This document shows, piece after piece, positions 18,895 through 64,000 of a stretch of 64,000 bases of DNA. Location: positions 302,683 through 366,682 of the forward strand of contig CAWEFR010000005.1 in NCBI GenBank assembly GCA_963808335.1, given 5' to 3'. Source of the DNA: Terriglobia bacterium (lineage in GTDB: Bacteria > Acidobacteriota > Terriglobia > Bryobacterales > Bryobacteraceae). The first letter of the stretch is position 1, and each line of letters opens with the position of its first letter. The position numbers and the translations under genes are program-made. The notes beneath the pieces are model-generated. The model saw only the letters and a program-made list of their open reading frames with translations. It was not told where the DNA came from and did not search any database.

Positions 18895-18915
18895 ATAAAG
18901 GTTAGAAGGTTGCTG

Positions 18916-18962: not shown

Positions 18963-19009
18963 TTTTTCAGCACTCTGCTAAGGGATGGAGAGACGGGAAG
19001 GCGAGCTTC

Positions 19010-19196: not shown

Positions 19197-19216
19197 ACTT
19201 TTTCAGAATACCACGA

Positions 19217-28657: not shown

Positions 28658-28676
28658 CTTTGGACTCGCCCTAATG

Positions 28677-29309: not shown

Positions 29310-29366
29310 ACCTCAAAATCGACTGAAGCGCTCGCATCGCGAAACATAACCAAGGTCTTTCAGACA

Positions 29367-39905: not shown

Positions 39906-39918
39906 GATCGCCTTCCTC

Positions 39919-43251: not shown

Positions 43252-44296
43252 AGTTCCACGATCCTTTCAAGAAGAAGCCATAGCCCAAACAAACATCTTC
43301 GCGGTCCTCATTCAGACTCCGGACCGTCGGTACGCGGCCCTCGATGAAGAACACAGAACCCGAATCGACCCCGAACCGCGCCGGCTTCGGACCGCCACGA
43401 GCCAAGTCCCACCCGGAGACTGCGTATGGCCCCTCCACGGCTGCCGCCCGGAGTTGCGCATCCGGAATAACATCTGGCTGCCAACCCTTGATAAAGAACC
43501 CGGGGCTCAACAGCAACAGTGACACGCGATCAGCGGAAGCAGCCTCAGGCCACGTTACGAGCGGGACTTTGCGGATGGCGACGTGATGGCGTTCGCCACC
43601 CCAAGCAACAGTGGTTGGAGTGTCGAAGTGGCCCGCCTTGTTTTCCGGCACGTCCGCTTCAGCATAGAAGCCCCAGCCAGGTCTGAGGCGAAGGTTCCGG
43701 GTTGAGTAGATTTCGCCCTCTTTCGACGCGCTGGTATCCGGATCGATGGAGACCCCGGTCCGGTCCTCACGAAGGTAAGACTCGTCGTGGCGACGCACAT
43801 CCTTCGCCTTGAGCGGGCTGTTGCGCAAGTACGCCGTCAACCCCTCGAAGTTGAGCAACTCAGGCCGCTGCTTCGAGGGCTTCTTCCCCTTTCGCCAGAG
43901 CGGGTACATACCAGCGAGCGGTGGCTGCCAGCCGGGGATCATCCGGGCGGCAGGCTGCAGCCGGACAACCTCGCCATCGACAAACCGCAAATCAGCAGGC
44001 GCGGGGATCAATGGTCGTGGCACTGTCCCATCAAGTTCCGCGAGCCAAGGACCGCGGAAGCAGACATCGCCGAGCCACGCCGCCCCAGCGGCGATGAAGG
44101 CCTCGCTCAGGGTCGGCTTCCCTCGCATGGCGGCGAAGTCGGCGTTTTCGCGGTCAAGCAGGAATGTGCGTAGCACTCCAGCCAAAGATTGCGGCGACGG
44201 CAACGACGACTCGCCGGGCAACCCCGCCCCAAACGGTCGGCCGCCACGAAAAAACAAGGTGTCAAGCGGCTCGAATACCAGTCCGATCGTCTTCAT
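43238..44296 (-). CDS. cmr3: Cmr3 (Cas5-like)
   Basis: Start at MKTIGLVFEPLDTLFFRGGRPFGAG...PSPQSLAGVLR. The ORF's upstream 97 codons overlap cas10 and were discarded. Confidence 0.85.
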   Translation of the reverse strand: MKTIGLVFEPLDTLFFRGGRPFGAGLPGESSLPSPQSLAGVLRTFLLDRENADFAAMRGKPTLSEAFIAAGAAWLGDVCFRGPWLAELDGTVPRPLIPAPADLRFVDGEVVRLQPAARMIPGWQPPLAGMYPLWRKGKKPSKQRPELLNFEGLTAYLRNSPLKAKDVRRHDESYLREDRTGVSIDPDTSASKEGEIYSTRNLRLRPGWGFYAEADVPENKAGHFDTPTTVAWGGERHHVAIRKVPLVTWPEAASADRVSLLLLSPGFFIKGWQPDVIPDAQLRAAAVEGPYAVSGWDLARGGPKPARFGVDSGSVFFIEGRVPTVRSLNEDREDVCLGYGFFLKGSWNYASE

Positions 44297-44301
44297 CGCA
44301 A

Positions 44302-46542: not shown

Positions 46543-47687
46543 TGAAGTTTCTCTCCCGACGAAACAATCCTGACTTGATCGCTCCGTAGCCGCAACCCAT
46601 ACTTCGTGTTGGGTCGTTGGCTGGTGGCATGAATTCTGTAAACCTCAGCTTGCGCCCCCAGCACCTTTCGCAACAGCGCATGAACTCGCGACTTGTGCTG
46701 GAGAAAGAAGTCCTTGTCCATGCCATGCCGTAGAGCGTAGGCCGTTCGTGAATCGTCGCTGGAGTCGCCAATTATGAGCCGGTATTCCCGCAAGTACTCT
46801 TCGGCTAAGGAGGCGTCTCCATATTCGGGAGGCGGGCAAGCAAGGGGCTCACGTGCCTCGACTGCTCGGCGAGCGAACATCGCGTAGAAAGCCAGGTCGC
46901 CTGGACAGAGCCGTAAGGAGATGCCGCCGCCTTTCGCTTCGTTCCGAATAAGGTCGACAATGAGTTCGGGGGGGCCCAAACTGCGTTGGGCAGCTTCGAC
47001 GGCTTCAATGAATGACGTCCGGCCTGAAAGCAACGATTCTGGCAACCCGTGCCGCAGGCGCACGAACGGGATATCCGCGAGAGTGACCTTTGCCGTTGAC
47101 GTATCCAGTGGGCGGCTATCGGGTGGGGCAGTGTAAATAACATGGCTCTTTCGCGTTGGAAAGAAGAAGCTCGGATGTGACTCGAACGGTGGCGACACAA
47201 GAACATGCGAAAGCCTGTCTTGTGCACGGCCGTACAGCGAAATTGCATAGCCCAAGAAGAAGCCGATAGTCTTTCGTCCGCCGGCTATCGAGACGTGCAG
47301 GGCACCCTCATCGTCCTCTGTGAGTTCCCGGATAAGTTCCGTGATCCCGTCCGCGGCATGCTGGTTGTCCTCGGCTGAGCGGATGTCGTCCAGCGCTTGG
47401 CCTTGGCTGTCTTCAAGGACGACGATCATGCCCGGGTTGAATACGGCGGGCGGCAACTGATACTCGTCCAACAGCCGTTTCAGCCACTTCTGATCGTCGC
47501 CGAGCAGCATCAGCCTCGCTCGATCAGCTCCTTCACGCGTGGTCGCAAGCCTGACTTCCGTTGGAATCCAAGGGTGGGCGGCAGCGACGGCTAGAGCGTA
47601 GAAGGATTCGGTGACCACCTGGGGCGTCAGCCCGGCGGCGACAAGCAGGATGCGGCGCGCGTACTCGCTCGGATCTCCATTTATCAC
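46539..47687 (-). CDS. NE0113/TIGR02584-type CARF protein (Csx14-like) with a ~170-aa C-terminal extension
   Basis: RILLVAAGLTPQVVTESFYAL, LDDIRS.EDN, LHVSIAGGRKTIGFFLGYAISLYGRAQDRLSHVLVSPPFE. ATGA overlap with the cas10 start. Confidence 0.75.
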   Translation of the reverse strand: MINGDPSEYARRILLVAAGLTPQVVTESFYALAVAAAHPWIPTEVRLATTREGADRARLMLLGDDQKWLKRLLDEYQLPPAVFNPGMIVVLEDSQGQALDDIRSAEDNQHAADGITELIRELTEDDEGALHVSIAGGRKTIGFFLGYAISLYGRAQDRLSHVLVSPPFESHPSFFFPTRKSHVIYTAPPDSRPLDTSTAKVTLADIPFVRLRHGLPESLLSGRTSFIEAVEAAQRSLGPPELIVDLIRNEAKGGGISLRLCPGDLAFYAMFARRAVEAREPLACPPPEYGDASLAEEYLREYRLIIGDSSDDSRTAYALRHGMDKDFFLQHKSRVHALLRKVLGAQAEVYRIHATSQRPNTKYGLRLRSDQVRIVSSGEKLQ

Positions 47688-48013
47688 GTTAATCGGTTTA
47701 TTTTAGCGCCATTTTCTACGCAGGAATGCGTTCACAAGCTTGCGACGATAAGCCTTCCCGTGGAAACAGGACTCTCGCCCTCAAACGACTGGCGTCACAG
47801 TGCTGCCCGTCCGGCAGTCTTGTATTGGGGGGTTCCGGTCGCGCTCCCCGGACCTCTGGATCAGCGGACTGGTCTGTGGAAACCCGCGGAGTACGATCTC
47901 TCCATCTCGATCCGGCGAGGATTGCCGGCAACCCCCGTCAACCCGCCTTTTCCAAAGCCCCTTGTCCGGAGTGATCACCAATCCACAATTGACAAGAGGT
48001 AGACTAGGGCTTC

Positions 48014-48229
48014 ATGGCAAAGCAGACAGCCGCATCCGCACCACAGGAGCGACCTTACAAGACCACGGGCGTCCACCTGCCAGCGGATCTTTGGGAACTC
48101 CTCAACCGTGTTGCTTTCGAGCGTGCCAGGTCCCGAGGCGGCCGGGCATCGGTTTCGGCGCTCCTCGTTGAGATGATCGAGCGGCATCGCAAGCAACTCG
48201 AAAAGGAACTGGCTTCCGCAACCCGCTGA
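48014..48229 (+). CDS. Ribbon-helix-helix (CopG/Arc-like) DNA-binding protein
   Basis: 71 aa. TTGVHLPADLWELLNRVAFE...SVSALLVEMIERH fits a beta-alpha-alpha RHH pattern. Confidence 0.5.
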   Translation: MAKQTAASAPQERPYKTTGVHLPADLWELLNRVAFERARSRGGRASVSALLVEMIERHRKQLEKELASATR

Positions 48230-48245
48230 CCCCGCGAGGGAAGAC

Positions 48246-49235
48246 ATGACGACGCCGGACAACTATCATCGCCCAGACGAAGCCGCCCAAACTCAACAAG
48301 CACGACTCACCGATTGGACATGGGAGGGTGCAACGGTCGTAGAACTGACCGGGAAGGTTGCCGAGCTATTTCCCCACGTTCCTGTGTTCAGCCGCCACCC
48401 GTTCCGGGTCGGGAGCGAAGAGAACCGCTTCAAAGACGAAATTCGGCGGGAACCTCTGAAGATCACGGACGAACCCATTCCGGTGGCAACAGTGTCGAAG
48501 ACCTACTCCCTCATCCAACACAGGGACGTCCTTTCGTCGGTCTTTCGGGCGCTGAAGATGATCCACATCGACATTTCTGGCATCGACTCGTCGCTTCTTC
48601 TTTCGGAGTACGGGGAGCGGATGCAATGGAGTTGCGCCATCCCGAACATGGACTTCGATCCGGGAGATGGCTACCCTCTCGTGTTGCGGATCAACTGCCT
48701 AAATTCGGTTGACACGAGCACTGTCCTCGAAATCACCTTCAGTTGGTACCGGCTGATTTGCAGCAACGGGATGATGTTCGGACTCAAGGACAGCCGACTG
48801 CGACGACGGCACGTCCAATCTCTCGATCCGGAAGACATCGCCGCCTATCTGAAGGAACAACTCGATCAACTCCCGCAGGAGAAGAGCCTAGTTGCCGCTT
48901 GGCTCAAGACCACGGTGGAACCGCCATCACTGATCGGGTGGCTTGAAGAGAAAGTGGCGAAGGAATGGGGGCCGCACGCCGCTGCAAGAGTCTGGAACAT
49001 TATCAACGAAGGCTTCGACGGTGAGGTCGAACAGGCAAGAAATCTCAAGCCTCTTCAACTGCCCATCACGAGCACGAACGCAGTACCAGGAGCTTGTGCG
49101 CCAGTGCGGAATCTTTTCCATGTCAGCCAAGCGCTCAGTTGGATTGCCGGAACCCGCAACACGATACCCGAGAGGCTGGAGCATGTGAAGGCCATTCCAC
49201 GCTTGATGGAACCGCTCACGGAGGCGGCTGCATGA
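48246..49235 (+). CDS. DUF932 (phage/plasmid-like) protein
   Basis: VATVSKTYSLIQHRDV, PLVLRINCLNSVDTSTVLEI, WYRLICSNGMMFG...RRRH. Confidence 0.6.
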   Translation: MTTPDNYHRPDEAAQTQQARLTDWTWEGATVVELTGKVAELFPHVPVFSRHPFRVGSEENRFKDEIRREPLKITDEPIPVATVSKTYSLIQHRDVLSSVFRALKMIHIDISGIDSSLLLSEYGERMQWSCAIPNMDFDPGDGYPLVLRINCLNSVDTSTVLEITFSWYRLICSNGMMFGLKDSRLRRRHVQSLDPEDIAAYLKEQLDQLPQEKSLVAAWLKTTVEPPSLIGWLEEKVAKEWGPHAAARVWNIINEGFDGEVEQARNLKPLQLPITSTNAVPGACAPVRNLFHVSQALSWIAGTRNTIPERLEHVKAIPRLMEPLTEAAA

Positions 49236-49323: not shown

Positions 49324-49814
49324 ATGACCAGCAAGTCCACCGACTCGGGCGTGATTCTAGCCCAACTTGAGCAAGCCATCGAACAGGCAGCAAGCCAGTA
49401 TTTTCGGCTCGTCATCTTGGCGGGTGCCGCCTGGCTCTGGGAAAACCGCCGCTTTGCAGTCCGTTGCGCAGAAGATCGGCTGCCAAGTAGTGAACGTCAA
49501 CCTGGAGTTGAGCAAGAAGATGCTCGAACTGACCCGCACCCAGCGGTCCCGGCAGGTCGAGCGGTTGCTGAAAGAAGTGATCGCCGCCGTTCCCGGCGAC
49601 GTCGTGCTGCTCGACAACCTGGAGATTCTGTTCGACACCGGCCTGGAGGTCGAACCGTTGCGTCTGCTTCAGGTGTCGAGCCGGAACCGCACCATCGTCG
49701 CCTCGTGGAGCGGCAGCTATCGCGACTGGGACACTGACCTACGCCGAACCCGGTCATCCTGAGTTTGTCCAGTTCAAGCAGTCCGAGGCAGTCGTCATTA
49801 CGGTCGGCACATAG
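49324..49814 (+). pseudogene. brxF: BREX type 3 P-loop protein BrxF; two frame breaks as assembled (~49425, ~49735)
   Basis: FRLVILAG / PPGSGKTAALQSVAQKIG..VNVNLELSKKMLELT...VVLLDNLEILF. Sits directly before brxC. Confidence 0.7.
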
Positions 49815-49842: not shown

Positions 49843-52800
49843 ATGAAATACAGCGATCTGGTCAAGTTTCGAGCCAATCGAATCCGTCATCCAGCTTGAG
49901 CAGGCGGATTCACCCGCCGCCGTGCGGCAACTCGTTCAGACGTTCGTGATCTCGAAGCGCATGGCCGAGCAGTTGTGCGATCTGGTGATCCCCAACCTCC
50001 AGTTCGAGTCGCCCGCCGACAACAAGGGCGTCCTCATCGTCGGCAACTACGGCACAGGTAAGAGCCACTTGCTGTCGCTGATTTCCGGGCTTGGCCGAGT
50101 ATCCCGACATGGCCAAGGTCGTCAAGGACAAGGACGTGGCGAAGGCGGCGAAGGCGATCTCCGGGAAGTTCAAAGTCGTGCGGCTCGAACTCCCGGCCAC
50201 GAAGAAGAGCTTGCGCAACATCATCTGCGGCAGACTCGAAGACTTCATGTCGAACGAAGGGCTGACCTTCAGCTTCCCCGCCGACGATCAGGTGGACAGC
50301 AACAAGGACGACCTGTCCAACATGATGGCGCAGTTCAGCGAGAAGTATCCCGAACCACGGTCTGCTCCTGGTCGTGGACGAACTGCTCGACTACCTGCGC
50401 TCCCGCAAGCAGCACGATCTCATCCTCGACCTCGGCTTCCTGCGGGAAATCGGCGAGGTCTGCAAGCTGATCCGCTTCCGCTTCATCGCGGGCTTGCAGG
50501 AGAGCCTGTTCGACAACCCGAAGTTTCAGTTCGTCGCCGAGAGCCTGCGCCGGGTAAAGGATCGCTTCGAGCAGGTTCGCATCGTCCGGCAGGACGTGGC
50601 CTACGTCGTTTCCGAGCGGCTGCTGACCAAGAACGACGAGCAGAGGGCCAAGATTCGGGAACACCTTCAGAAGTTCACGCCGCTCTACGGCGGCATGGCC
50701 GAACGGCTGGAAGAGTTCGTGCGGCTGTTCCCGGTCCACCCGACATACCTGGAAGTCTTCGAGGCCATCTCCATCGCCGAGAAGCGGGAAGTGCTGAAGA
50801 CTCTGAGCGCCGAGATCAAACGCTGCCTCAACAGCGACGTGCCGCAGGACCAGCCCGGCCTCATCAGCTACGACTCGTATTGGGAGTTCCTTCAGGGCAA
50901 TGCCGTGCTGCGTTCGGTCCCGGAAATCCGGGAAGTGATCGACGTGAGCAAGGTCGTCGAGAACCGCATTCAGCAAGCCTTCACCCGCAAGGCGCTTCAG
51001 CCGATGGCAGAGCGCATCATCCACGGCCTGTCGATCCATCGGCTGACGACCGACGACATCCGGGCCAAGATCGGCCCGACCGCCGAAGAACTTCAGAACG
51101 GCCTGTGCCTGTTCGCTCCGATCCCGGAGAAGACCAGCGACTTCCTGCGCACGACCGTGGAAGCGTGCCTGAAGGAAGTGATGAAGACCGTGAGCGGCCA
51201 GTTCATCACGCACAACACCGACAACGACCAGTATTACCTCGACCTCCAAAAGACCATCGACCACGACGCCAAAATTCAGGACAAGGCCGACACGCTCTCC
51301 GATTCGCAACTGGACCAATACTACTTCGACGCCCTGACCCGTGTGCTGGAATGCGCCGACCAGCCACCTTACGTGCGTGGCTACCAGATTTGGGAACACG
51401 AGATCGAATGGCGAGAGCACAAGATCACACGCCGAGGATACCTGTTCTTCGGCGCACCGAACGAGCGATCCACGGCCCAACCGCCACGAGACTTCTACCT
51501 GTACTTCCTCCAGCCATTCGAGCCGCCACACTTCGAGGATCAGAAACTCGCCGATGAAGTGTTCTTCAAGCTGACCCACATGGACAAGCAGTTCCAGGAC
51601 ACGCTGCGCCTCTACGCTGGCGCTCGTGAAATGGCAGCGTCGGCCAGCAGCGGCACGAAGAAAGTCTATGAGGACAAGGCCGACGGGTTCCTCAAGACGC
51701 TCGTGGCGTGGCTGCGGACCAACATGCTGACTTCGTTCGATGTCATCCACCAGGGCGTTCCGAAGAAGATGGTGGAGTGGCTGAAGGGACACCGAACCGG
51801 CAACGCTGCCGTCCGTGAACTGTTGGAACTGACAGGCTCGGTCTGTCTGGCGGCTTCGTTCGAGGATCGCTACCCGGAGTACCCGAGCTTTCACGGTCAA
51901 CTCACCGCCAGCAACCTCAAGCAGCCGACAGAAGACGTGATCCGCTGGCTGGCCGGTGGCGTGAAGAACAATCTGGCGACCGCCGTTCTCGACGGCCTGG
52001 AACTGCTGGACGGCGACAAGCTGAAGCCGCACCAGTCCCGCTACGCCAAGGTGGTGCTGGAGAAGCTGGAAGGCAAGCCGCCCGGCCAGGTCGTCAACCG
52101 CAAGGAACTCATGACGGTCAAGAACGACGTGGAGCGGGAGACCCGGTACCAGCTTGAGCCGGAATTTCTGCTCGATCGTCCTGGCCTCGCTCGTGCAGAA
52201 CGGCAACATCACCCTGAGCTTGACTGGCAAGAAGCTCGACGCCGCCAATCTGAGTGAAGCCAGCAAGATGCCGCTGGATCAACTTCTGGCTTTCAAGCAC
52301 GTCGAGAAGCCCAAGGGCTTGCCGCTGGCCGAGTTGGTCGCCCTGTTCGAGTTGCTGGGGCTGGCCGAAGGGCTGATCCGCAACGAAAACACGCACGACG
52401 AAGCGGTAAAGCAACTTCGAGCCAAGGCCAACGAACTGACCGAGAAGGTCGTCACGGTCGCCCAGCACGTCCAGACCGGCTTGCCTTGCTGGGGTAGCGA
52501 ACTGATTCCCGCCGAGGACCGGGAGCAGCAGCGTCAGAAACTCGATGAACTGAAGGCGTTTCTGGAGGGACTGCAAGCGTTCAACACGCCCGGCAAGCTG
52601 AAGAATTTCTCCAAAAGCGTGCTGGAGATTCAGGTTCAAGCTGCCAACCTCGATCTCATCAAAGCAGACTCGAAGACCTGAACGGTCTGGTGCAGGAGTT
52701 GACGCCACTGACAGGCTACCTGGCGACCGCTGCTGCTGTGCTGCCGCCGCAAGACCCGTGGCGAACGCAGATGGACACGATGCGCAGCGAATGGCGTGCG

Positions 52801-53566
52801 AAGCTGATGGACCCCGCCGCCCGCAATGCCGCCGACTTCCGCCAGAAGATCAATCGGGCGCTCTCGAAGGTGAAGGACGACTACCGGACGGCGTACTTCA
52901 ATCTGCACAAGAAGGCTCGGCTGGGGGTCAACGAGGACGGCAAGAAAGAAGGAACTGCTGAAAGACCCGAGGCTGGAAAGCTTGAAGAAGCTGACCAGGT
53001 GTATCGCTGCTGCCGCATTCAACTCTCACTGAACTTCAGACCCGGCTGGCAAAGCTCCAACCGTGCTTCACGCTGGTCAAGGATGATCTGAACGCTTCGC
53101 CCATCTGTCCCCACTGCAACTTCCGACCGCAGGAAGAGAGTCGTGGGCGCCAGCGGAATGGCGGTCCTCCAGCAGATCGACCAGCAGCTAGACGGCCTGT
53201 TGGAGAACTGGACGCAAGACGCTGCTGGAGAACCTGGACGATCCCACCGCCAAGAAGAGCATCAAGCTGCTTGCCTGACGATCAGAAAGAAGCGGTCAAT
53301 GCCTTCCTCAAGGCGAAGGCACTCCCGGAGAAGATCAGCAACGATCTGGTCCAGGGGATGCAGACGGCGCTATCCGGCCTGATCGCCATCCCAATCCGCC
53401 CGACCGAACTGCTCGACGCCTTGAGCGATAGCGGCGCTCCTTCCACCGCCGATCAGATTCAGTCCCGGTTCGAGAAGTTCCTGCAGAAAGATCACACAGG
53501 GGCAAGGAACAATCGAAAGTCCGTCTGGTCATCGAACGTAGCGAGAATCCAGGAGGACAAGAGTGA
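49843..53566 (+). pseudogene. brxC: BREX type 3 large ATPase BrxC (DUF6079-like), about 10 frame breaks as assembled; 3' end inferred
   Basis: [22 protein letters not shown], Walker [16 protein letters not shown], Walker [13 protein letters not shown]. An intact 627-aa block spans 50374-52257. C-terminal CPHCNF motif. Confidence 0.7.
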
Positions 53567-56500
53567 CCACGCACCTGTCCACCCGCCTCGTCTGGCACGA
53601 CCGGGCTTGGGACGGTCACATCTGCGATCACCCCAGCAAGAACGCCTACTGCATTGTGCAGCAGCACATCCGGGATGGCCGAGATGACGACCAAGGAGGA
53701 CAAAGCGGCTGGTCTGGCTCTTGCGGAACTCAAAACATGGCAACCCCCGTGCTCCCGTGATCCCATTGCCTTCTCGTCTCGTGGCTACACGATCACGCAC
53801 AACGATCCGCTTGAATTCCGCCAGTTGCCTTCGGTAAAGGAAGACATACCGCCGTATTCGGTCTGCCCGTCGCCGTACCGCTGGCTGCGAGAGGAGAGCT
53901 TTCGCAGCATCTGCGAGGATGAAAAGCTCGACATCCGGGAATCGGACACGAAGGACAAAGAGTTCGGCTGGGTCTTTGAACCCGACCGGCAGATCGAACT
54001 GCTGCGCAACTTTTGGGGAAAGCTGGAGAAGAAGCAAGTCGCTGCTGTTCTTCTATTGCAACCACGGCAACCCGCTCGATGAAAGCCTGAACCGTATATT
54101 GCTCGGGGTCAGCCGCATTTCTCAAATCGGTCCTCAACTATTCTTCGGAAAGAAGCTCCCGAAGTTTCCCGACCAGTATCCGATCTGGTCCCGCTGCATT
54201 ACGCACGACTTCGAGAACCAGGGCTTCCGGTTGCCATACCACGAATATCTAAAGGCCGGCACGATCCGAAGAACATCCTTTGCCTTGTCCCGGAAGGGGC
54301 GATGCTGAACTTCTCCTACGTCGCCGAGCACGTTGGCGACGACATGGCAGTAGGCGCACTGGAGAGGTTGCTGCAATCGGTTCAGGCCGTCAAGGACGAG
54401 AACAAAGTCTCTGGTGATTGGGACCGGCATCTTCTTTGGCTGAACGATGTGCTGTCCGAGGTTTGGCAGAATCGTGGGCCATTCCCCGGCATCGGCAGCG
54501 TACTCCAGTACCTCGGCTGCGAATCGGGCACGGCGTTCCAGCGGGAGGTTCTGGTGCCCTTACTGAACAAAGGCGATGACGCATGGGAATACGTCAAGGC
54601 CATTCTGGAAGGTCGCCGCAAGTGTGAGCAGCAGCAGTATGCAAAGGCGCTGAAACAGGCAGGTGAACGCTGGATGGCTTACAAGGAGCCACGCCGCCGT
54701 CTGTTGTCGATGCTCGTTCGACTTGAACTGACGCCTCAACAGGTGGAGCGGGTCGCCAATCCCGACAAACGTTCAAATTCCGGCATCAGCGCCACGGACG
54801 AACAACTCGTCGCCAATCCCTACTTGCTTTCGGAGATGGACCAGGGCGACGGTGAATCCGACCTGATCGCTTTGGAAACGGTAGACAGGGCAATGCGACC
54901 CGAAGGTGCCGCGGCTCGATTCATCGACAAGGCCGACATCTGCGTTCAGGATGACCCTCGCAGAGTTCGTGGCGTGGCGGTCGCCGTACTTCAAGGAGCG
55001 GCGCAACAGGGCGACACTCTACTGCCGTTTGCCGAGACCATCAACCGCATCATCAAACGTTTTCCCGAACGCCGCACGTGTAGCCCTGACAAAGATTTGG
55101 TGCAGGGCCAAGCCAGCTTCTATCAGGAAGCTCTGGATTTCCGAGTGGATGGCAATCCGCCCACGATGGCGCTGAAGTGGCTTTCCGAACTGGAGCGTGA
55201 AGTCAGCAGCCGACTGCCCCGGCGAACGAAGGCCAAGAATCCAGCGCCCAAGGCCGGATGGAGTTGGGAGAAGCTGCTGCTGGACGAGTTCGGCAAGAAG
55301 TCCGGCTCCAAGTTGCCGCCCGAAGTGGAGGAACGGGCCAGGAAGGAGAAGGCGGAAGCTCTGGCCAAGCTCTACGAGGGCCGATTCAGCGTACTGTGCG
55401 GACGAGCCGGGACCGGCAAGACATCGGTGCTGAAGGTCTTCCTCAAAGGGCTGGAAGAGTTGGACGGCAAGCGCCCGATTCTGCTCCTGGCCCCGACCGG
55501 CAAGGCCCGTGTGCGCCTGATGGATCGGACAAAGCGGGACGACGGTAGCGTGCGGGATGCGTACACGATTCACCAGTTCCTGATGCGGCACAAGTGGCTC
55601 AACCCGGAGAACTTCGCCTTGAAGCTCCAGGGTGGCGAACAGCATGGCGCACCGACCGTCATCATCGACGAAGCCTCGATGATCCCGATGGACCTGCTCG
55701 GTGTTCTGTTCCGGGCATTGGACTTGAACAAGGTGAATCGTCTGATCCTCGTGGGCGACCCCAACCAACTCCCGCCCATCGGCCCCGGTCGTCCGCTCGT
55801 GGACATCATCGCCTGGCTCGAATCGGACGCTGGATCGAACGAAGTGCCTGGCGCGGCTGATGGAGCGTGCCAGACACGAAGACCATGACAGCCAGGCCCT
55901 TCAGCTTGCGGACGGCTATCTGCGGGACGACACTTCTCCCGGCGACGATGACATGCTTTCCCGTGTTGCCCGTGAGGACGTGGGCGGTGATCTGGAAGTT
56001 CGCTACTGGCGGGATGCGACCCAACTGGAAGAACAGCTTGCCGCTGCAATGCGGAAGCACCTGAAGTTGACCGACGACACGAAGGCATACATTCCATTCA
56101 ATGCCAGCCTCGGACTGCCTGAAGACGCCAAAAAGAACGACCCGGTTCAAGCGGAGACGTTGGCAGATTCTCAGCCCAGTGCGTAACCACGAGTTCGGAA
56201 CCACCGAGATCAATCGTAAGATTCAGGCGAAGTATCGGGGAGGAATGCTCACGACAGCAAAGAATCAGTGGAGCAAGGTCGTGAAGCCATTCGGCGAGCA
56301 GGAGATCGTCTGGACCGACAAGGTGATGCAGGCGATCAACTGCCGGAAGACCTCCTATCCGAAGGGTCAGGAGGGGACTGGATTACGTCGCCAATGGCGA
56401 GATCGGCCTCGTAGTGCAGACATCCAAAGGGAACGGCAAACCAGACTCGATCAAAGTCCAGTTCTCGACTCAACCGGCGTCGTCCTATTACTACTCCCGT

Positions 56501-57184
56501 TCCGATGTCGATGGCCAACTGGAACTTGCCTACGCCCTGACGGTCCACAAGTCGCAGGGCAGCGACTTCGACATCGTGTTCTTTGTCCTGCCGAAGAGCG
56601 CAAGCACCCTCTCACGGGAATTGCTGTACACCGGCCTGACCCGGTTTCGCAAGAAGATGGTGCTGCTGCTGGAGCGGGACACGACGGTTCTCGAAAAACT
56701 CCGCAATCCACAGTGCTCGGATACGCTGCTTCGGAACACGAATATGTTCGTTCTGGCGGTTCGCCCCGAATCGGTGGACCGCTACTATGCCGCTCATCTG
56801 ATTCACCGCACACGCCCATCGGCGCAACACCCGCAAGGGATTCTGGTCCGCTCGAAGTCGGAGGTAATCGTCGCCGACATCCTGACAAGCCTAGGAGTCA
56901 GTTACGAGTACGAGCAGAAGCTCCCCTCCAAGGACGACCCGAACGACTTCAAGCTGCCGGATTTCACAGCGAGCTACGAGGGCGACACGTTCTATTGGGA
57001 GCATCTGGGGATGCTGTCGGTGCCATCGTACCGGGAAGCGTGGGATCGCAAGCGGCAGTGGTACGAAGACAACGGGTACCTCGACCGGATCATCACGTCC
57101 GAGGACGGCGCTGACGGGAGCATCGACGCCGCCGAGATCGAGCGGATCGCACGCAAGAAGATTCTGATGGAAGGCTTGAACTAG
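53563..57184 (+). pseudogene. ~1,200-aa SF1 (RecD/AAA_30-type) helicase with an unassigned ~500-aa N-terminal region and a PD-(D/E)xK-like C-terminal module; about 6 frame breaks as assembled
   Basis: LCGRAGTGKTS, VIIDEASMIP, LILVGDPNQLPPIGPG, ALTVHKSQGSDFD, LYTGLTRF. C-terminus: SKSEVIVADIL...DFKLPDFT...FYWEHLG. Frame breaks near 53690, 54040, 54290, 55860, 56170 and 56390. Confidence 0.7.
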
Positions 57185-57195: not shown

Positions 57196-59884
57196 ATGGC
57201 AAACACAACGCAGACCAAAATGTTCGCTTCGGACCGGAACGTTGCCTCAGACCAGCCGGTCGAGTGCTTGGGAATCAAGTTCCCAAACGATGAGGCTCGT
57301 CGAGCCCACTTCCTTGAGAAGTTGCGGGAGAAACTGAAGGACCCTGCTTTTCGCAAGATCGACGGATTCCCCCGTGGAGAGGACGAGGACATTTTGGCCA
57401 TGTCAGACCCGCCGTATTATACGGCGTGCCCAAACCCCTTTCTTCACGACTTTCTGCTGGCGAACGGCAAGCCTTTCAGTCCGAACACTGACAAATACCA
57501 TCGAGAGCCATTTGCCGCCGATGTTTCAGAGGGCAAGAACGACCCGATCTATAACGCTCATAGCTACCACACAAAGGTCCCGCACAAGGCGATCATGCGG
57601 TACATTCTTCACTACACAGAACCGGGTGACGTTGTTTTGGATGGATTTTGTGGAACAGGTATGGCCGGAATTGCTGCACAACTCTGTGGCGACGCCAGCG
57701 TGGTCGGATCGCTTGGTTACAAGCGTTCTAAAGGCGATACCCTCCTGAATGAGAGTGGCACGCCTTTCTCCAAGCTCGGGGCCCGCCGAGCGGTCTTATC
57801 CGATTTGTCGCCAGTTGCCAGCTTCATCGCACACAACTACAACACGCCCTTAGATGTTCGGGCGTTCGAAAAAGCCGTTGCCTCATTCTTCGCAGAGATT
57901 GAAGTCGAGTTGTCGTGGATGTACACCACGAAGCATTCTGATGGGACCGCCTGTCGGATCAACTACGTTGTGTGGTCCGAAGTATTCTTGTGCCAAGACT
58001 GTGGAGCAGAGGTCGTCTTTTCGAAACAGGCGCTCAATGAAAAGACGGGGGAAGTGCTAAAAGAGTTCACCTGCCAGAAATGTAACGCCATCGTCTCCAA
58101 GCGCACGATGTCCCGAGTGTTCGAGACGTTTCTTGATCCGGTGAACCACACCACTGCGAAGCGGGTCAAGCGGCTTCCGTTGATTATCAACTACACATTC
58201 GGTGGGACGAAATTCGAAAAACAGCCAGACAAGTCTGATCTTGCCACCCTCGCAAAGATCGAAGCCTCGCCTGTCAACGGGTTCTTCCCCGCAGTTGAAA
58301 TGCCTTACATGTTCATCACTCATGTCAAGGACAGGATGGCGAATTTCGGCATTTCCCACTTTTCGCATTTTTTCCTTCCCCGATCTCTGCGCGCTCTGGC
58401 GACTATGTGGAGAGTCGCCAACAGATGTGAGGATGCCCGTGTTCGACATGCGCTGCTGTTCATGGTGGAACAGTGCAATTGGGGAATGTCGCTCTTCGCT
58501 CGATATGTTCCTACACACTTCTCCCAGGTTAACCAGTATTTGAGCGGCGTGTTCTACATCAGTTCCCAGATAGTGGACGTATCCCCGTGGTACATACTAG
58601 ATGGAAAGTCTCGGCGCCTGGGCAAGGTGTTTGCAGCGCTTCCTTCAAACGGCGGCGTCGTGACATCACTTCACTCGGGTACCGCGGCGCTGCTGCCGAG
58701 TCAATCCGTAGATTACATCTTTACCGATCCTCCGTTTGGCGAGAACTTGCAGTACTCCGAACTCAATTGGCTGACGGAAGAATTCTACAGGCTGAAGCCC
58801 AAGATTGAAACAGAAGCGGTAATCAATGCGGCGCAAAAGAAGGGGCTACTTGAGTATCAAGGTCTGATGGAGAAATGCTTCGAGCAGAACTACCGTGTTT
58901 TGAAACCGGGACGTTGGATGACCGTGGAGTTCCACAATTCCAGAAATGCCGTTTGGAACGCAATCCAAGAGGCGATGCAACGGGCTGGCTTCGTTGTGGC
59001 CGACGTTAGGGTCCTCGACAAACAACACAAAACATACAAACAGCAGGTTCAAGGCGTGGTGAAGGCGGATCTCATCATTTCGGCGTACAAGCCATCCTTA
59101 GAGCTTGAGGAGCGGTTCAAGATTGAGGCCGGAACCGAACAGGGTGTCTGGGATTTTCTTCAACACCACTTGCAACAGCTTCCCAGTTTTGTCGAAAACG
59201 GAGGACGAGCCGAGGTCATCGCCGAGCGCCAAGGGTACCTTCTGTTTGATCGTATGGTGGCATTTCATGTTCAGAGGGGAGTGGGAGTGTTCTTGTCCGC
59301 CCCGGAGTTTTACGCAGGGTTGCGTCAGCGGTATCCCGAGAGGGACGGCATGTACTTTCTGCCAGTTCAGGCAAATGAGTATGACCGCAAGCGTCTAGAA
59401 GTGGAGGAAATCGGCCAGTACGATCTTTTTGTCAGCGATGAAAAAAGTGCGATTCAATGGGTTCGTCGCCAGCTGTCGGAGACCCCGATGGACTATCAGC
59501 AATTGCAGCCAATGTACATGAAAGAAGCACAGCGAGTTTGGGAGAAACACGAACAACCATTGGAACTCAGAACGATCCTAGAGCAGAACTTTGTTGAGGG
59601 CAAGGACGGGACCTGGCATGTTCCTGATCCAAAAAAGGAAACTGATCTCGACCAACTTCGCAACCGAGCGTTGTTGAAGGAATTTCAGCAGTACCTGGAG
59701 GCGAAAGGCAAACTCAAGGTCGTCCGCACAGAGGCTCTTCGGGCGGGATTCAAGGACTGCTGGCAGAGGAAGAGACTTCACCACTATTGTTCAGATGGCA
59801 AAGCGTCTCCCGGAGACTGTGATTCAAGAAGACCAAGCGTTGCTGATGTACTTCGATAATGCGTCTCTGCTATCCGGTGAGTAG
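57196..59884 (+). pseudogene. pglX: BREX type 3 DNA methyltransferase PglXI; one frame break near 59775
   Basis: MSDPPYYTACPNPF, VVLDGFCGTGMAG, IFTDPPFGENLQYSELN. The 887-aa frame is intact up to the last ~35 codons. Confidence 0.85.
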
Positions 59885-59887
59885 GAC

Positions 59888-62717
59888 ATGCCGCAGTCTT
59901 TCATTCAGAGTCGTGCAGTCGGCAGTTGGGCGTTCAGTGCGGCCCACGGAGAGCCTGTGCGCATCCTCGACGTGGAGTCCGTCTGGAACCACACTGTCTA
60001 TGAGGTCTGGGTTCCCCGGCTGGAGAAAGTCGAGAGAGTTCCAGCCGAATCGCTGGCTCCAACTCAATCGCCCAAAACGACCGGCTCAAAGAGGACAGGC
60101 ATCGACCGCATCGCATACGCCGTTTGTGCGGCCCGGATCGCCGACGCATTGACCCAGGACGTTCTGCTGGCTCCACTGGAAGCTGGCGTCATCCCGCTCC
60201 CGCACCAACTCTACGCTCTCACTCGTGCAGTGGGCGACGACCGGATTCGCTACCTGCTGGCCGATGAGGTTGGCTTGGGCAAGACCATCGAGGCTGGGCT
60301 GATCTTTCGGGAACTGAAGCTCCGTGGGCTGGTCAAGCGGGTCCTGGTGGTTGCGCCGAAGGGTCTGGTGACGCAATGGGTTCAGGAAATGCAGACGCAC
60401 TTCGGCGAGGAGTTCCGGCTCCTCACGCCAAGCGAGTTTTCGTTGTGGCGCAACCTCACCGGCTCCGAGAACATCTGGCGGCAATTCGATCAGGTGGTGT
60501 GCCCCGTCGATTCCATCAAGCCAGTTGAGAAGCGGCGAGGTTGGCCGAAGGAGAAGCTGGAAGCCTACAACCAGGAACGCCTCGGTGACCTCATCGACGC
60601 CGGGTGGGATTTGATTATCTGCGATGAGGCCCACCGGCTCGGTGGCAGCACCGAACAGGTCGCCCGGTATCGTCTGGGAAAGGCTCTCGCAGAAGCCGCA
60701 CCCTACTTGCTGCTGCTGTCGGCCACGCCGCACCAGGGCAAGACCGCCAGCTTCCAGCGCCTCATGGCCCTGCTGGACCGTGACGAGTTCAATACTGCTG
60801 GAACGATCCGCCGCGAGAAAGTCGTCCCGCTGGTAATCCGAACGGAGAAGCGGAGAGCGATCAACGAACGGGGCGACCCGCTTTTCTTGCCCCGGCTGAC
60901 CAAGCTGATGCCTGTTCGCTGGGAAGAGAAGCACGAGCTCCAGAAGCATCTCTACGAATCGGTCACGGAGTACGTTCGCCTTGGCTACAACCAGGCGATC
61001 CGGCAGAACCGGCAGTATCTCGGCTTCCTGATGATCCTGATGCAGCGCCTGGTCACCAGCAGCACGCAAGCCATCGCCTCGGCTCTGGAGCGCCGCCTGG
61101 AAGCGCTGCAAGCCACAGACATCACGGCGACCGACGAGGAACCGCCCGAGAACAACGGCGAAGAGCAGGACAGCCAGGAGCAGCTGGACGAACTGCTGTC
61201 CATCCGGCTGGCCGGGTTAGCGAACGAGAAGGAAGAAGTGCGGCTGCTGCTCGATCTGGCTCGGCGCTGTCAGGCGCAGGGACCGGACGCACGAGCCGAA
61301 ACACTGCTCGACATCCTCTATGAGAACCAACGGCAAGAGAACAACCCGGAGTTGAAGTACCTGATCTTCACGGAGTTCGTTCCGACGCAGAACATGCTGC
61401 GGGACTTTCTGGAGCAGCACGGCTTCTCGGTCGTCTGCCTGAACGGGTCGATGGATCTGGACCAGCGGCGGCGAGTCCAGCGGGAGTTCGCAGAGAAGGC
61501 TCGGATTCTTGTTTCGACCGATGCCGGTGGCGAAGGTCTGAACCTGCAATTCGCCCACATCGTCATCAACTACGACCTGCCGTGGAATCCGATGAAGATC
61601 GAGCAGCGCATCGGGCGCGTGGATCGCATCGGCCAGAAGCTCCCCGTGAAGGCGTTCAATCTGATCTTCGAGGACAGCGTGGAACTGCGGGTGCAGGAAG
61701 TTCTTGAAGAAAAACTGGCCACGATTCTGGATCGAGTTCGGCGTGGACAAGACCGAGGACGTGCTCGATTCCGCTGAGAGCGGAGCGATCTTCGAGAGGC
61801 TATACGCACAGGCGATCCTCAATCCCGGCGACATCGAGAAGAACATCGACAAGCTGATTCAGGAAGTTCGGGAGCAGGCGCAACAGGAAGTGGCTGGCCG
61901 GTCGTTCTACGGCGAGACGGTACTTGATCCCGACGCTGGCCCAGCAGTTGAGTAGTCACCCACTGCCGTTCTGGGTCGAGCGGATGACGACGGCGTACCT
62001 GCGCTGTGAAGGCGGCAAGGTGCGATCGGGACTTGTTCAGCTACAGCCTGGAATGGCCCGATGGCAGCAGGATGGAGCGGGTATCGTTCCACAGCCGGGA
62101 TGCGCAGGACCGTGGGTTGCAGCATGTCAGCCTGGAAGACGACCGCATTCGTCGGCTTGTCCAGCAGTTGCCCCGAGTCGTGGTCACCGAGCCGATTCCG
62201 ATGCGTTCGGTTGCAGAGCTTGCCAGCCGAAGTGGTTGGCTACTGGTCGCTGTGGCGGATCACTCTCGACCACCAGTCGTTCCGGGACGTGAAGATCATT
62301 CCGATCTTCCACCATGACGATGGCCGCATTCTGTTGCCCACGGCTCGGCACATTTGGGACCTGCTGCTTGAAGACCGGCCCGAAGTCGAACAGATGGGAA
62401 CGAAGGCCGGCACCGAAGTCGAAGATGTATTCCGGCGTCTGCGATCAGAGGCGGAACGCCAGGGCGAAGACGCCTTCCACGAACTCCATGCCCGGCACCA
62501 GCAGCGATTGAAGCGGGAGCAGGAGAAGGGGCGATACGCCTTCCAGGTTCGGCGAGAAGCCCTGAACCGCATCGGCTTGCCCGAAGTCCGGCAGCATCGT
62601 CTGAAGCGGCTGGACGAAGAGGAGAAGGCCTGGGCTGAAGAACTGCGGAAGCGGGAGCAAGTGTTGCCCGAACTTCAGCCGGTCATTCTCTTGCGGGTGG
62701 AGGCAGGGAATGGCTAA
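59888..62717 (+). pseudogene. brxHII: BREX helicase BrxHII (SNF2/COG0553-type); about 4 frame breaks as assembled (61740-62240)
   Basis: LLADEVGLGKTIEAGL, LIICDEAHRLGG, LLLSATPHQGK, STDAGGEGLNLQFAHIVINYDLPWNPMKIEQRIGRVDRIGQ. Confidence 0.8.
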
Positions 62718-64000
62718 CTGGCGGGACAGCATCCTGAAGAACTTTCAGCCAAAGATTTCCCGGCTGACTCTGGTGGCCGACCCGGACGGTTTGCTGACCG
62801 AGGAAGGGATGCTCTCGGCCATCCGGGAGCGGGGCTTCGACCTGATCCCGTTCGATGATCCCGATCGCGTTCCGCTTCGCCTACGAAGTCGCAGTACCGC
62901 AGCGAGTGGGACCAAGGGCCAGAACACGGATCTTGGTGGTGGTCCTGCGTTCCGCCGAACAGCAGTTGAACAAGCTGCCATTCGATCTGCTGAAGGCTGG
63001 GACGGCCGCTCACATTCGCTTTGCACCAGTTGTTCCCGAAGCTGAACTATCCGGTGATCGCCGGGCTTGACCGTGCCTACCTCGACGCGGTTGCTGAGTG
63101 CGTACGAGAAGCATGACGGCGCCCAGTTGACCGAGCGGGAAACCAAGGACTTCGTCCTGATGCACTGCTTCGGCATCGTGCCGAAGCTCATCAAGACGCC
63201 GGTTGAGTTGCTGAAGGTGCTGCTGTCGCTGCACGCCCGTAAGGTTCGACTGCCCGACTTCCTCAACGACTACCTGCTGGAGAGCCTGACGAAAGACTCG
63301 ACGTTTGCGACGTGGCCGCTGGCCGACATTCTGCCCAGCCGGGAGAAGTTTCTGCGGTTCCTGCAGGACGAATGGCAAAGTCTTCCTTGGCTCCTTCGCC
63401 GACGATGGCACGAACAAGCCGGGTTCCCTTCCAGCCACGAGGACGTGCGTGCCTACATCGACACATTCTTCCTGGACGGCTCGCTGAAGCCGGTCGAACA
63501 GGAAGACGTGGCCAAGCTTCCAGCCTGGGTCCGAACTGGCGTGGTCCACGATCCCAAGGCCGACGCCATGCGGCGATTCCGTGCGCTGCGGCAGAAGTTC
63601 GAGACTGAAATCCCCGGCGCCGAAGTGTCGCACCGGGATTGGCAGCAAGCGGCCCAGCGTTGGGCCGAACTGGTCGTGCTTGCGCTGGGAGTGGGACGAG
63701 GCGATGGACGCCGCCGACCGAACGGCCTGGGCTGATTTGCAGTCGAAGGTGGAGGACGCCTTCGGCCAGTGGATGATGCAGCGTTACGGCTCGCTCCACA
63801 ACCTGCCGTACCACCAACAGCCGGTCATGGTGCATCAGATTCCCCGTTTCTTGGCCGTCGAGCGGGCACGGAAGAAGACTGGCCAAGATCGCACTGCTCG
63901 TGCTGGATGGCCTCGCCTTCGATCAGTGGCTTTTGCTGCGAGAAGAGCCTTGAAGCTGGCGATAAGGCGTGGCGTTTCCAGGAATCGACCGCATTCGCCT
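62710..64000 (+). pseudogene. pglZ: BREX phosphatase-family protein PglZ, 5' part only (runs off window); several frame breaks as assembled
   Basis: MANWRDSILKNFQPKISRLTLVADPDGLLTEEGMLSAIRERGFDLIPFDDP, then IAFRFAYE, ILVVVLRS and LPFDLLKAG in shifted frames. ATG overlaps the brxHII stop. Confidence 0.7.

What the first reader, a model, noticed from the sequence alone, without database searches (positions are those of the whole stretch)
53563..57184. Large helicase-nuclease gene nested between brxC and pglXI of a type 3 BREX cassette
The published type 3 BREX order is brxF-brxC-pglXI-brxHII-pglZ-brxA. All neighbours here follow that order, but an extra ~3.6 kb reading frame sits between brxC and pglXI.

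Its GTG (53563) follows a GGAGG and overlaps the inferred brxC stop (GTGA). It ends 11 nt before the pglXI ATG. It is therefore part of the BREX transcription unit.

The reconstructed product has three parts:
- about 500 aa of N-terminal sequence I cannot assign (TRLVWHDRAWDGHICDHPSKNAYC..., FFYCNHGNPLDESLNRILLGVSRI...)
- an SF1 RecD-type motor (GTGKTS, DEASM, VGDPNQLPPIGPG, VHKSQGSDFD)
- a ~150-aa C-terminal PD-(D/E)xK-like module (SKSEVIVADIL..DFKLPDFT..FYWEHLG)

Nested effectors in BREX are known (e.g. the GmrSD-type BrxU), but I know of no described BREX-3 partner with this architecture. It is a candidate new BREX accessory or an independent helicase-nuclease defence gene.
Basis: partly seen in the sequence, partly recalled or inferred. 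Interest (0 to 1): 0.78.

Follow-up and report, generated by a model that had tools for sequence, protein, structure and literature searches.

The report
Catalogued helicase-nuclease nested in BREX-3
The extra 3.6-kb gene between brxC and pglXI is real, but it belongs to a helicase-nuclease family (PADLOC candidate PDC-S68) that was already flagged as a possible phage-defence gene precisely because it sits inside BREX and similar systems, so it is a new copy of a known, still untested, candidate rather than a new kind of thing.

Summary
A roughly 1,205-codon gene occupies 53563-57184 (+). Its GTG overlaps the brxC stop (GTGA) after a GGAGG, and it ends 11 nt before the pglXI ATG. Six 1-2 nt indels break the frame.

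The flanks are a true BREX-3 set: BrxF, BrxC, PglXI, BrxHII and PglZ_3. brxA lies beyond the window end.

The stitched product matches PADLOC model PDC-S68 end to end (E 3.6e-220 and 1e-147). [quoted passage not shown] None was tested experimentally there.

The frame breaks look like assembly indels:
- The same kind of break occurs in five neighbouring genes.
- After correction there are no stops, all 455 family-invariant residues are kept, and pN/pS is 0.13.

Domain findings:
- The motor is SF1B RecD-like.
- The C-terminal domain has a PD-(D/E)xK fold (model core pLDDT >90; every top Foldseek hit is such a nuclease).
- The N-terminal ~460 aa remain unassigned.

In 80 species, one clade (≥60% identity) sits in the BREX-3 brxC|pglXI slot. 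Other clades lie beside DISARM-like, type I, ISP, III or IIG RM genes, or stand alone.

Interest is modest.

The parts
53563..57184 (+). Helicase-nuclease gene of the PADLOC PDC-S68 family. About 1,205 codons after indel correction; six frame breaks.
53551..53566 (+). GGAGG ribosome-binding site (53551-55) and GTGA start/stop overlap with brxC (53563-66).
   Evidence: The same GGAGG-N7-GTGA/ATGA junction is found in 13 of 21 nested orthologous loci.
53563..54973 (+). N-terminal region (aa 1 to about 470), not assigned to any family. It is rich in invariant Trp, Cys and His (W11, D13, W16, C21, N27, C30, C63 ...). A confident helical sub-domain spans about aa 300-430.
53690..53690 (+). Frame break 1: one extra base relative to L001 and L002.
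54031..54031 (+). Frame break 2: one extra base.
54262..54262 (+). Frame break 3: one base missing.
55831..55831 (+). Frame break 4: one extra base.
56158..56158 (+). Frame break 5: one extra base.
56372..56374 (+). Frame break 6: two bases missing.
55400..56650 (+). SF1B RecD-like helicase core: Walker A GRAGTGKTS 55400-26; Walker B IIDEAS 55658-81; motif III VGDPNQLPPIGPG 55748-89; weak SH3-like insert; HKSQGSDFD 56546-72; YTGLTRFR 56627-50.
   Evidence: Pfam AAA_19, AAA_30, UvrD_C_2 and weak SH3_13. PDB RecD 1w36_D E 9.6e-23 and RecD2 3e1s E 9e-17. Coordinates.
56852..57064 (+). C-terminal PD-(D/E)xK-fold nuclease core with invariant S-K-S-E (56852-), P-D-F (56957-), W-E-H-x-G (56996-) and K in WDRKRQWY (57041-).
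49324..49811 (+). brxF (BREX-3 P-loop protein); two frame breaks.
49844..53566 (+). brxC (BrxC-PglY_N plus DUF6079 type); about ten frame breaks.
57196..59859 (+). pglXI methyltransferase; intact, 887 aa.
   Evidence: PADLOC PglXI, 1192 bits.
59888..62717 (+). brxHII SNF2-type helicase; four frame breaks.
62710..64000 (+). pglZ (BREX-3 type); frame breaks; cut by the window end.

Best explanation
**What it is.** The gene encodes a member of the PDC-S68 family. This is a self-contained, single-protein helicase-nuclease that travels as cargo embedded in methylation-based defence loci. Here it sits in the brxC|pglXI slot of a BREX-3 operon.

**Shown**
- Full-length family membership.
- An SF1B RecD-like ATPase/helicase core with all motifs intact.
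- A C-terminal PD-(D/E)xK-fold domain with invariant acidic, His and Lys residues.
- Conserved operon coupling to brxC.
- One helicase clade is co-inherited with BREX-3 across Acidobacteriota, Planctomycetota and Methanosarcinales. The rest of the family sits beside other restriction-like systems or stands alone.

**Inferred mechanism**
1. The large conserved N-terminal region senses the trigger or DNA feature.
2. ATP hydrolysis drives 5'-to-3' translocation on single-stranded DNA, as in RecD and RecD2.
3. The C-terminal nuclease cuts the tracked DNA.
4. The host thereby gains a second, DNA-degrading layer alongside a BREX system that marks self by methylation.

The trigger is not established. 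Candidates are modified DNA (as for the type IV enzyme BrxU), DNA ends or nicks, or loss of the host system to an anti-restriction protein.

**Frame breaks.** The six breaks are most likely long-read assembly indels, so the real gene is probably intact.
For: **Family membership**
- PADLOC PDC-S68: the N part matches profile positions 5-765 of 1221 (E 3.6e-220). The C part matches 773-1218 of 1221 (E 1e-147).
- PDCs were defined as genes embedded in BREX, DISARM or type I RM.
- Family size: 606 clusters at 50% identity with E ≤ 1e-30. Nearly all of the best 150 are full length, 1,150-1,270 aa.

**Domains**
- Helicase: Pfam AAA_19, AAA_30 and UvrD_C_2; RecD and RecD2 structures.
- Nuclease: AF2 model core pLDDT 84-96 with alpha-beta-beta-beta-alpha-beta topology.
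- Foldseek top hits are all PD-(D/E)xK nucleases: R2 RLE, Bax1, TnsA, DrdV, MGME1 and Hjc. E from 4e-3, probability 1.0.
- Weak sequence hits to EcoRII-C (E 0.003) and to a PHROG Holliday-junction resolvase (E 5e-4).
- Invariant S-K-S-E, P-D-F, W-E-H-x-G and K.

**Context**
- L001, L002 and L005 show the same order brxF-brxC-HEL-pglXI-brxHII-pglZ.
- Methanosarcina mazei has it after pglXI, next to embedded Schlafen-like and Thoeris genes.
- L006 is stand-alone between two IS transposases.
- Of 80 species, 18 have it nested brxC|pglXI and 3 more have other BREX-3 adjacency. Nearly all of these are at ≥60% identity. They form one NJ clade.
- Other clades lie next to DrmD-like SNF2 plus TmtA-like genes, a type I REase, type III RM, type IIG, DISARM (Bacillus cereus plasmid) and type ISP RM (Paracoccus plasmid).
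- Some members carry an extra Schlafen/AlbA_2 domain.
- The GGAGG-GTGA junction is conserved in 13 of 21 nested loci.

**Integrity**
- After indel correction: 0 stops, 455/455 invariant residues kept, pN/pS 0.13 against L001.
- Similar frame breaks occur in the SbcC-like gene, brxF, brxC, brxHII and pglZ.
Against: - No member of the family has been shown experimentally to protect against phage. PDCs are candidates only, and no paper held in the library names PDC-S68.
- The N-terminal 460 aa could not be assigned. The model is poor (pLDDT 57) and Foldseek gave nothing below E = 1.
- The nuclease has no canonical (D/E)xK lysine in place. The structural matches are moderate (E about 4e-3, TM about 0.4), so activity is inferred, not shown.
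- Frame-break density is uneven. pglXI (2.7 kb) and the type III-B module (about 7.7 kb) are unbroken. Real decay of part of the locus therefore cannot be excluded without reads.
Confidence: 0.65

Rival explanations
1. In the BREX-3-embedded clade the protein is not a passenger. It is a functionally integrated subunit: the DNA-degrading arm of this BREX-3 variant, acting on DNA that the BREX machinery has recognised as unmethylated.
For: - The start codon overlaps the brxC stop behind a GGAGG. This junction is conserved in 13 of 21 nested loci.
- The clade is monophyletic and co-inherited with the cassette across phyla and into archaea at 60-96% identity.
- A 2026 survey argues that BREX loci recurrently recruit auxiliary nucleases.
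Against: - Canonical BREX-3 has six core genes without it.
- Close relatives nested inside the same clade have left BREX-3: L006 between IS elements, L009, L053, and L011/L012 beside DrmD-like genes.
- In Methanosarcina mazei it sits in a different slot, beside other obviously autonomous cargo such as Thoeris.
- Helicase and BrxC identities are decoupled in L017, L018 and L073: about 61% against about 81%.
Confidence: 0.2
2. The gene, together with brxC, brxF, brxHII and pglZ, is a genuinely decayed pseudogene in this genome. It would be left behind beside an intact orphan methyltransferase.
For: - Six frame breaks in the gene and about ten in brxC, while pglXI is intact.
- The indels are not in long homopolymers.
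Against: - No nonsense codon after correction.
- No change at any of 455 invariant positions.
- pN/pS is 0.13.
- The same breaks occur in the unrelated SbcC-like and SNF2 genes elsewhere in the window.
- The closest public relatives come from nanopore metagenome assemblies that show split genes of their own.
Confidence: 0.1
3. It is a housekeeping or conjugation helicase (a RecD of RecBCD, or a TraA/TraI-type relaxase-helicase) that merely lies next to BREX.
For: - Sources name homologues "exodeoxyribonuclease V alpha subunit".
- There are weak NCBIfam hits to RecD, RecD2 and TraA_Ti.
Against: - All those hits are far below the curated cut-offs (214 against 500; 168 against 310; 57 against 590). 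They cover only the motor.
- No relaxase domain and no recB or recC neighbours in any locus read.
- Neighbours are defence genes.
Confidence: 0.05

Closest known systems
PADLOC phage-defence candidate PDC-S68 (models PDLC05064-05066; Payne, Hughes, Fineran & Jackson, bioRxiv 10.1101/2024.01.29.577857)
   Same: End-to-end profile match, same length, same single-gene architecture. Like the family's founding members, it is embedded in a BREX system.
   Different: Nothing architectural. This copy belongs to a sub-clade fixed in the BREX-3 brxC|pglXI slot. The family itself has no experimental validation or published domain description that I could find.
RecD / RecD2 (SF1B 5'-3' DNA helicases)
   Same: The motor domains and motifs, including the SH3-like insert (weak). 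These are the best solved-structure relatives.
   Different: It has about 460 extra N-terminal residues and a C-terminal nuclease, and no RecB or RecC partners. It scores far below the RecD and RecD2 equivalog cut-offs.
BrxU (GmrSD-type type IV enzyme embedded in the pEFER BREX locus)
   Same: A nuclease-bearing accessory gene nested, co-oriented, inside a BREX operon. It is the precedent for a complementary second layer.
   Different: Unrelated protein: BrxU is DUF262/ParB-like plus HNH/DUF1524 and uses no SF1 helicase. It occurs in BREX type 1 rather than type 3.
Single-protein helicase-nuclease defences (Hhe, Nhi, Hna) and helicase-nuclease effectors such as DruE
   Same: The general logic: one polypeptide joins an ATP-driven motor to a nuclease.
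   Different: Different helicase families or domain order, and different N-terminal regions. Hhe is the only one that surfaced in a search here, at 14 bits over 40 residues. Nhi, Hna and DruE are named from my own knowledge and were not compared.
PD-(D/E)xK nucleases R2-RLE, Bax1, TnsA and EcoRII-C
   Same: The fold of the C-terminal 110 residues, with acidic residues on the first helix and on strands 2 and 3.
   Different: Sequence identity is only 12-18%. The motif is S-K-S-E ... P-D ... W-E-H-x-G ... K rather than a classical (D/E)xK.

Membership tests
PADLOC PDC-S68 | Full-length match to the family HMM. | tested here: met
   PDLC05065: profile positions 5-765 and 773-1218 of 1221, E 3.6e-220 and 1e-147.
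PADLOC PDC-S68 | Found embedded, co-oriented, within BREX, DISARM or type I RM loci (the criterion by which PDCs were defined). | tested here: met
   Nested between brxC and pglXI here and in 18 of 80 species. Criterion taken.
PADLOC PDC-S68 | Anti-phage activity. | not testable with these tools
   PDCs were not tested in the defining study. No paper naming PDC-S68 was found.
BREX type 3 core component | Belongs to the conserved six-gene set (brxF, brxC, pglXI, brxHII, pglZ, brxA). | tested here: not met
   The published core set lacks it. 59 of 80 species carry the family away from BREX-3.
BREX type 3 locus (the flanking genes) | Type-specific BrxF, PglXI (N6_N4 MTase), SNF2 BrxHII and PglZ_3. 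| tested here: met
   NCBIfam BREX_3_BrxF 176 bits (cut-off 50) and BREX_PglZ_3 620 bits (cut-off 250), on the 96%-identical L001 orthologues. PADLOC PglXI 1192, BrxC 1765, BrxHII 1390 and BrxA 232 bits.
RecD2 / RecD (NCBIfam equivalogs TIGR01448, TIGR01447) | Score above the curated equivalog cut-off. | tested here: not met
   214 against 500 bits, and 168 against 310 bits.
SF1B helicase superfamily | Walker A, Walker B and motifs III, V and VI conserved. | tested here: met
   GTGKT, DEAS, GDPNQLPP, HKSQG and TGLTR are invariant across 16 homologues and present in the window.
PD-(D/E)xK nuclease superfamily (C-terminal domain) | Alpha-beta-beta-beta-alpha-beta core fold. | tested here: met
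   Model core pLDDT 84-96. Among the top 50 Foldseek hits I saw only PD-(D/E)xK-type nucleases. Best E 4e-3, probability 1.0.
PD-(D/E)xK nuclease superfamily (C-terminal domain) | Catalytic E ... (P)D ... (D/E)xK triad. | tested here: inconclusive
   E (S-K-S-E), P-D and E-H are invariant. There is no Lys at the xK position; invariant K59 and K124 (domain numbering) are candidates.
GmrSD / BrxU type IV enzymes | DUF262 (ParB-like) plus DUF1524/HNH domains. | tested here: not met
   No such Pfam or PADLOC hit.
PUA-like / EVE modified-base readers (N-terminal region) | Significant sequence or structure match to an EVE, ASCH, SRA or YTH fold. | tested here: inconclusive
   No Pfam hit up to E 10. 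The EVE proteins 2hd9 and 2p5d, and VcaM4I, appear only at E 2.6-5.8 on a low-confidence model.

The most novel reading that the evidence does not exclude
The BREX-3-embedded clade of PDC-S68 may be a true functional partner of BREX-3. It is translationally coupled to brxC. In this reading it supplies the ATP-driven DNA-degrading activity that BREX lacks. Its unassigned, Cys/Trp-rich N-terminal 260 residues would be a new sensor fold that reads the state of the DNA or of the BREX complex.
Probability: 0.15. Interest if true: 0.7.

Novelty: new member of a known kind. Interest (0 to 1): 0.33.

Why it matters
How BREX stops phage without an obvious nuclease is an open question, and nucleases nested in BREX loci are one proposed answer.

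This gene adds a well-conserved example. One lineage of an untested candidate family (PDC-S68) is fixed in a single BREX-3 slot, with conserved translational coupling, and has spread across bacterial phyla and into methanogenic archaea.

That makes the family a reasonable target for wet-lab testing. Cultured carriers found here include:
- Roseiconus nitratireducens JC645
- Methanosarcina mazei
- Bacillus cereus megaplasmids
- a 24-kb Paracoccus plasmid

The finding itself does not reveal a new kind of system.

Tried and rejected
1. **N-terminal region (aa 1-470), not assigned.**
   - Pfam up to E 10 on 14 members found nothing consistent.
   - PHROGs found nothing.
   - A PDB sequence profile search found nothing.
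   - AF2 with a 14-sequence alignment gave pLDDT 57. Foldseek against PDB gave no hit below E = 1.
   - My guess of an EVE/PUA-like fold came from the "SLVFFY...G.P...RLLVGVG.I" pattern. It rests only on three insignificant hits and is not claimed.
2. **Megablast of the 12.5-kb BREX region against plasmids.** Only 70-bp helicase-motif matches.
3. **Phage collection.** Two unannotated short faecal contigs only. There is no sign that this is a phage gene.
4. **Literature.** "PDC-S68" appears in no held paper or supplement. The 2026 BREX survey's supplements do not mention an SF1 or RecD accessory.
5. **Pseudogene reading.** Considered and downgraded.
6. **RecD-of-RecBCD and relaxase readings.** Rejected on cut-offs and context.
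7. **Frequency of the gene among all BREX-3 loci.** I could not measure this, because every locus fetched was found through the helicase.
Full report

Yes. Six-frame translation of 49.3-57.3 kb shows one long coding region from GTG 53563 to TAG 57182-57184. It is interrupted by six frame changes, 0>1>2>1>2>0>1.

- GGAGG lies at 53551-53555.
- The start is GTGA, where GTG is the start codon and TGA is the brxC stop.
- Exactly 11 nt lie between the stop and the pglXI ATG at 57196.

All quoted peptide motifs are present at the coordinates listed under "parts".

**2. What are the frame breaks?**

I aligned the DNA to two intact orthologues from public metagenome contigs: L001 (96% identical) and L002 (84%). 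The breaks are five single-base insertions or deletions and one 2-nt deletion. None lies in a long homopolymer.

The same kind of break occurs in neighbouring genes when they are compared with the L001 proteins:
- SbcC-like gene: 2
- brxF: 2
- brxC: about 10
- brxHII: 4
- pglZ: several

A separate SNF2 gene at 30.8-33.4 kb is also split.

After removing the indels, the helicase gene has three properties:
- no internal stop codon
- every one of the 455 positions that are invariant across 16 homologues at 67-87% identity to the first sequence (P0001)
- pN/pS = 0.13 against L001

Substitutions therefore show purifying selection, and only indels are wrong. That is the signature of a noisy long-read consensus. 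The nearest relatives carry "np1212"-type nanopore contig names and have split genes of their own.

One observation remains unexplained. pglXI (2.7 kb) and a 7.7-kb type III-B module are unbroken, so the error density is uneven. Only the reads can settle this.

**3. The flanks**

They are a genuine BREX-3 cassette. For genes that are broken in the window, I used the L001 orthologues.

| Gene | Evidence |
|---|---|
| BrxF | NCBIfam BREX_3_BrxF, 176 bits against a cut-off of 50 |
| PglZ | NCBIfam BREX_PglZ_3, 620 bits against a cut-off of 250 |
| PglXI (the window's own intact ORF) | PADLOC, 1192 bits |
| BrxC | PADLOC, 1765 bits |
| BrxHII | PADLOC, 1390 bits |
| BrxA | PADLOC, 232 bits |

brxA lies beyond the window end.

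**4. What is the protein?**

- Pfam sees only the motor: AAA_19, AAA_30, UvrD_C_2 and a weak RecD SH3 domain.
- The best solved relatives are RecD (E 9.6e-23) and RecD2 (E 9e-17), again over the motor only.
- NCBIfam RecD2, RecD and TraA scores are far below their cut-offs.
- PADLOC-DB v2 has a dedicated model. PDC-S68 (PDLC05065, 1221 positions) matches from position 5 to 1218, with E 3.6e-220 for the N part and 1e-147 for the C part. Two sister models (PDLC05066, PDLC05064) also match.

The PDC ("phage defence candidate") families come from Payne, Hughes, Fineran and Jackson (bioRxiv 10.1101/2024.01.29.577857). [quoted passage not shown] From what I read, only the separate Hma-embedded candidates (HEC series) were tested there.

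I found no paper or supplement that names or describes PDC-S68. The 2026 BREX survey (PMC12839542) reports auxiliary PD-(D/E)xK nucleases in BREX loci, but not this SF1 architecture.

**5. Domains**

*C-terminal domain.* An AF2 model of the window's own last 167 residues has a core pLDDT of 84-96. Its topology is helix, three strands, helix, strand.
- Foldseek against the PDB returns only PD-(D/E)xK nucleases at the top: the R2 restriction-like endonuclease, Bax1, TnsA, DrdV, MGME1 and Hjc. Best E is 4e-3, probability 1.0, TM about 0.4.
- Weak sequence hits agree: EcoRII-C (E 0.003) and a PHROG Holliday-junction resolvase (E 5e-4).
- Invariant residues are S-K-S-E on the first helix, P-D before strand 2, W-E-H-x-G on strand 3, and a Lys on the next helix.
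- The classical xK lysine is missing, so catalysis is likely but not shown.

*N-terminal region (aa 1-470).* It is strongly conserved, with invariant W11, D13, W16, C21, N27, C30, P61-P62-C63, Y205-P206-W208 and others. It matched nothing in Pfam, PHROGs or the PDB.
- The AF2 model was poor (pLDDT 57). Only a helical part at about 300-430 was confident.
- Foldseek gave nothing below E = 1.
- The region stays unassigned.

**6. Family and contexts**

The family is large. There are 606 clusters at 50% identity with E ≤ 1e-30, and almost all of the best 150 are full length. A few carry an extra Schlafen/AlbA_2 domain.

A scan of one genome per species found 434 species with a relative. I kept the best 80 with 10-kb flanks and searched them with BREX-3 proteins:
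- 18 have the helicase between brxC and pglXI.
- L034 has it after pglXI.
- L081 has it just upstream of brxF.
- L050 has pglXI downstream on a cut contig.
- Nearly all nested cases are at ≥60% identity to the window protein.
- Of 52 loci at ≤55% identity, only two touch BREX-3.

An NJ tree puts the nested copies in one clade. A few "escapes" lie inside that clade:
- L006, flanked by two IS transposases in a housekeeping neighbourhood
- L009 and L053
- L011 and L012, beside a DrmD-like SNF2 helicase and a TmtA-like protein

In Methanosarcina mazei the same clade's gene sits after pglXI. There the BREX-3 operon also holds a Schlafen-like gene and a Thoeris pair.

Other clades lie directly beside:
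- DrmD-like helicases
- a type I restriction subunit
- type III and type IIG restriction-modification genes
- DISARM on Bacillus cereus megaplasmids
- a type ISP enzyme on a small Paracoccus plasmid

The steady theme is methylation-based defence neighbours. The gene's ability to stand alone argues for an autonomous module.

Within the closest sub-clade, the GGAGG-N7-GTGA/ATGA overlap with brxC is conserved in 13 of 21 loci. The gene is thus expressed as part of the operon.

**7. Mechanism**

*Shown:* the architecture, the intact motifs and the contexts above.

*Inferred from what is established for RecD, RecD2 and PD-(D/E)xK enzymes:* the protein would be an ATP-driven 5'-3' single-strand DNA translocase that carries a nuclease. 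The N-terminal region would set what it acts on. The protein would give a DNA-degrading second layer to a host system that discriminates self by methylation.

Three triggers are conceivable and untested:
- modified phage DNA (the BrxU precedent)
- DNA ends or nicks
- inactivation of the host system by an anti-restriction protein (the PrrC and PARIS precedent discussed)

The main rival is real functional integration with BREX-3 in this clade. I give it about 0.2.

**8. Verdict**

- The architecture and the defence reading are supported.
- The claim of an undescribed partner is not. This is a new member of an already catalogued, still uncharacterised candidate family.
- Interest is modest (0.33).
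- What remains worth testing is the unknown N-terminal domain and whether the BREX-3 clade is cargo or partner.

Noticed in passing
window 38154-47784 (minus strand): A complete type III-B CRISPR-Cas effector module:
- Cmr6/Cmr1-like fusion, 39919-42012
- Cmr4, 42415-43251
- Cmr3, 43238-44587
- Cas10, 44302-46542
- Csx1/CARF, 46539-47687

It is a 9.6-kb insertion relative to the otherwise collinear locus L001, lying between the SbcCD-like genes and the DUF932 gene. No CRISPR array was found in the window.
   Followed up: partly
window 38-64 kb: Frame-break density is uneven:
- The type III-B genes (about 7.7 kb), pglXI (2.7 kb) and the DUF932 gene are unbroken.
- brxC, the helicase, brxHII, brxF, pglZ and the SbcC-like gene carry a break every 0.3-1.6 kb.

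A possible cause is consensus errors where reads of several related strains were collapsed. This was not tested.
   Followed up: no
window 57692-59221 (inside pglXI): The central 1.5 kb of pglXI has no nucleotide similarity to the 96%-identical locus L001 and has lower G+C (0.52 against about 0.60). This looks like a swapped target-recognition insert, meaning a different methylation specificity in an otherwise shared cassette.
   Followed up: no
window 27641-38158: More defence-type genes lie upstream:
- AbiEii toxin, 27641-28657 (minus strand)
- an SNF2 helicase split in two, 30816-33363
- an SbcD-like phosphoesterase, 33664-34926
- an SbcC/LmuB-like ABC ATPase, 34923-38158 (two frame breaks)

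The defence island therefore spans at least 27.6-64 kb.
   Followed up: partly
window 48014-49235: A 71-aa ORF and a DUF932 gene (weak match to a phage/plasmid-like protein family) lie just upstream of brxF. They are 99-100% identical in protein to L001. This may be a mobile-element remnant travelling with the BREX-3 cassette.
   Followed up: no
L003 / L004 (Methanosarcina mazei), 1127-20806: One BREX-3 operon holds three embedded modules at once:
- a Schlafen/HATPase gene between brxC and pglXI
- the PDC-S68 helicase after pglXI
- a ThsA-Macro/ThsB-TIR Thoeris pair before brxHII
   Followed up: no
L011, L012, L024-L026, L031, L052, L085, L086: Many non-BREX homologues lie directly next to an SNF2 helicase of the DrmD/BrxHII type. 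That helicase is often accompanied by a TmtA-like or dynamin-like protein. BREX-3 also contains such a helicase. The recurring pairing of PDC-S68 with SNF2 helicases was not tested for significance.
   Followed up: partly
P0298, P0252 (representative-library homologues): Some family members carry an additional C-terminal Schlafen/AlbA_2 domain after the nuclease.
   Followed up: no
PADLOC model PDC-S69 against window 56681-57181: The C-terminal nuclease domain also matches the short candidate PDC-S69 (positions 182-260 of a 289-position model, E 3.6e-4). The same nuclease module may therefore exist as a stand-alone embedded gene.
   Followed up: no
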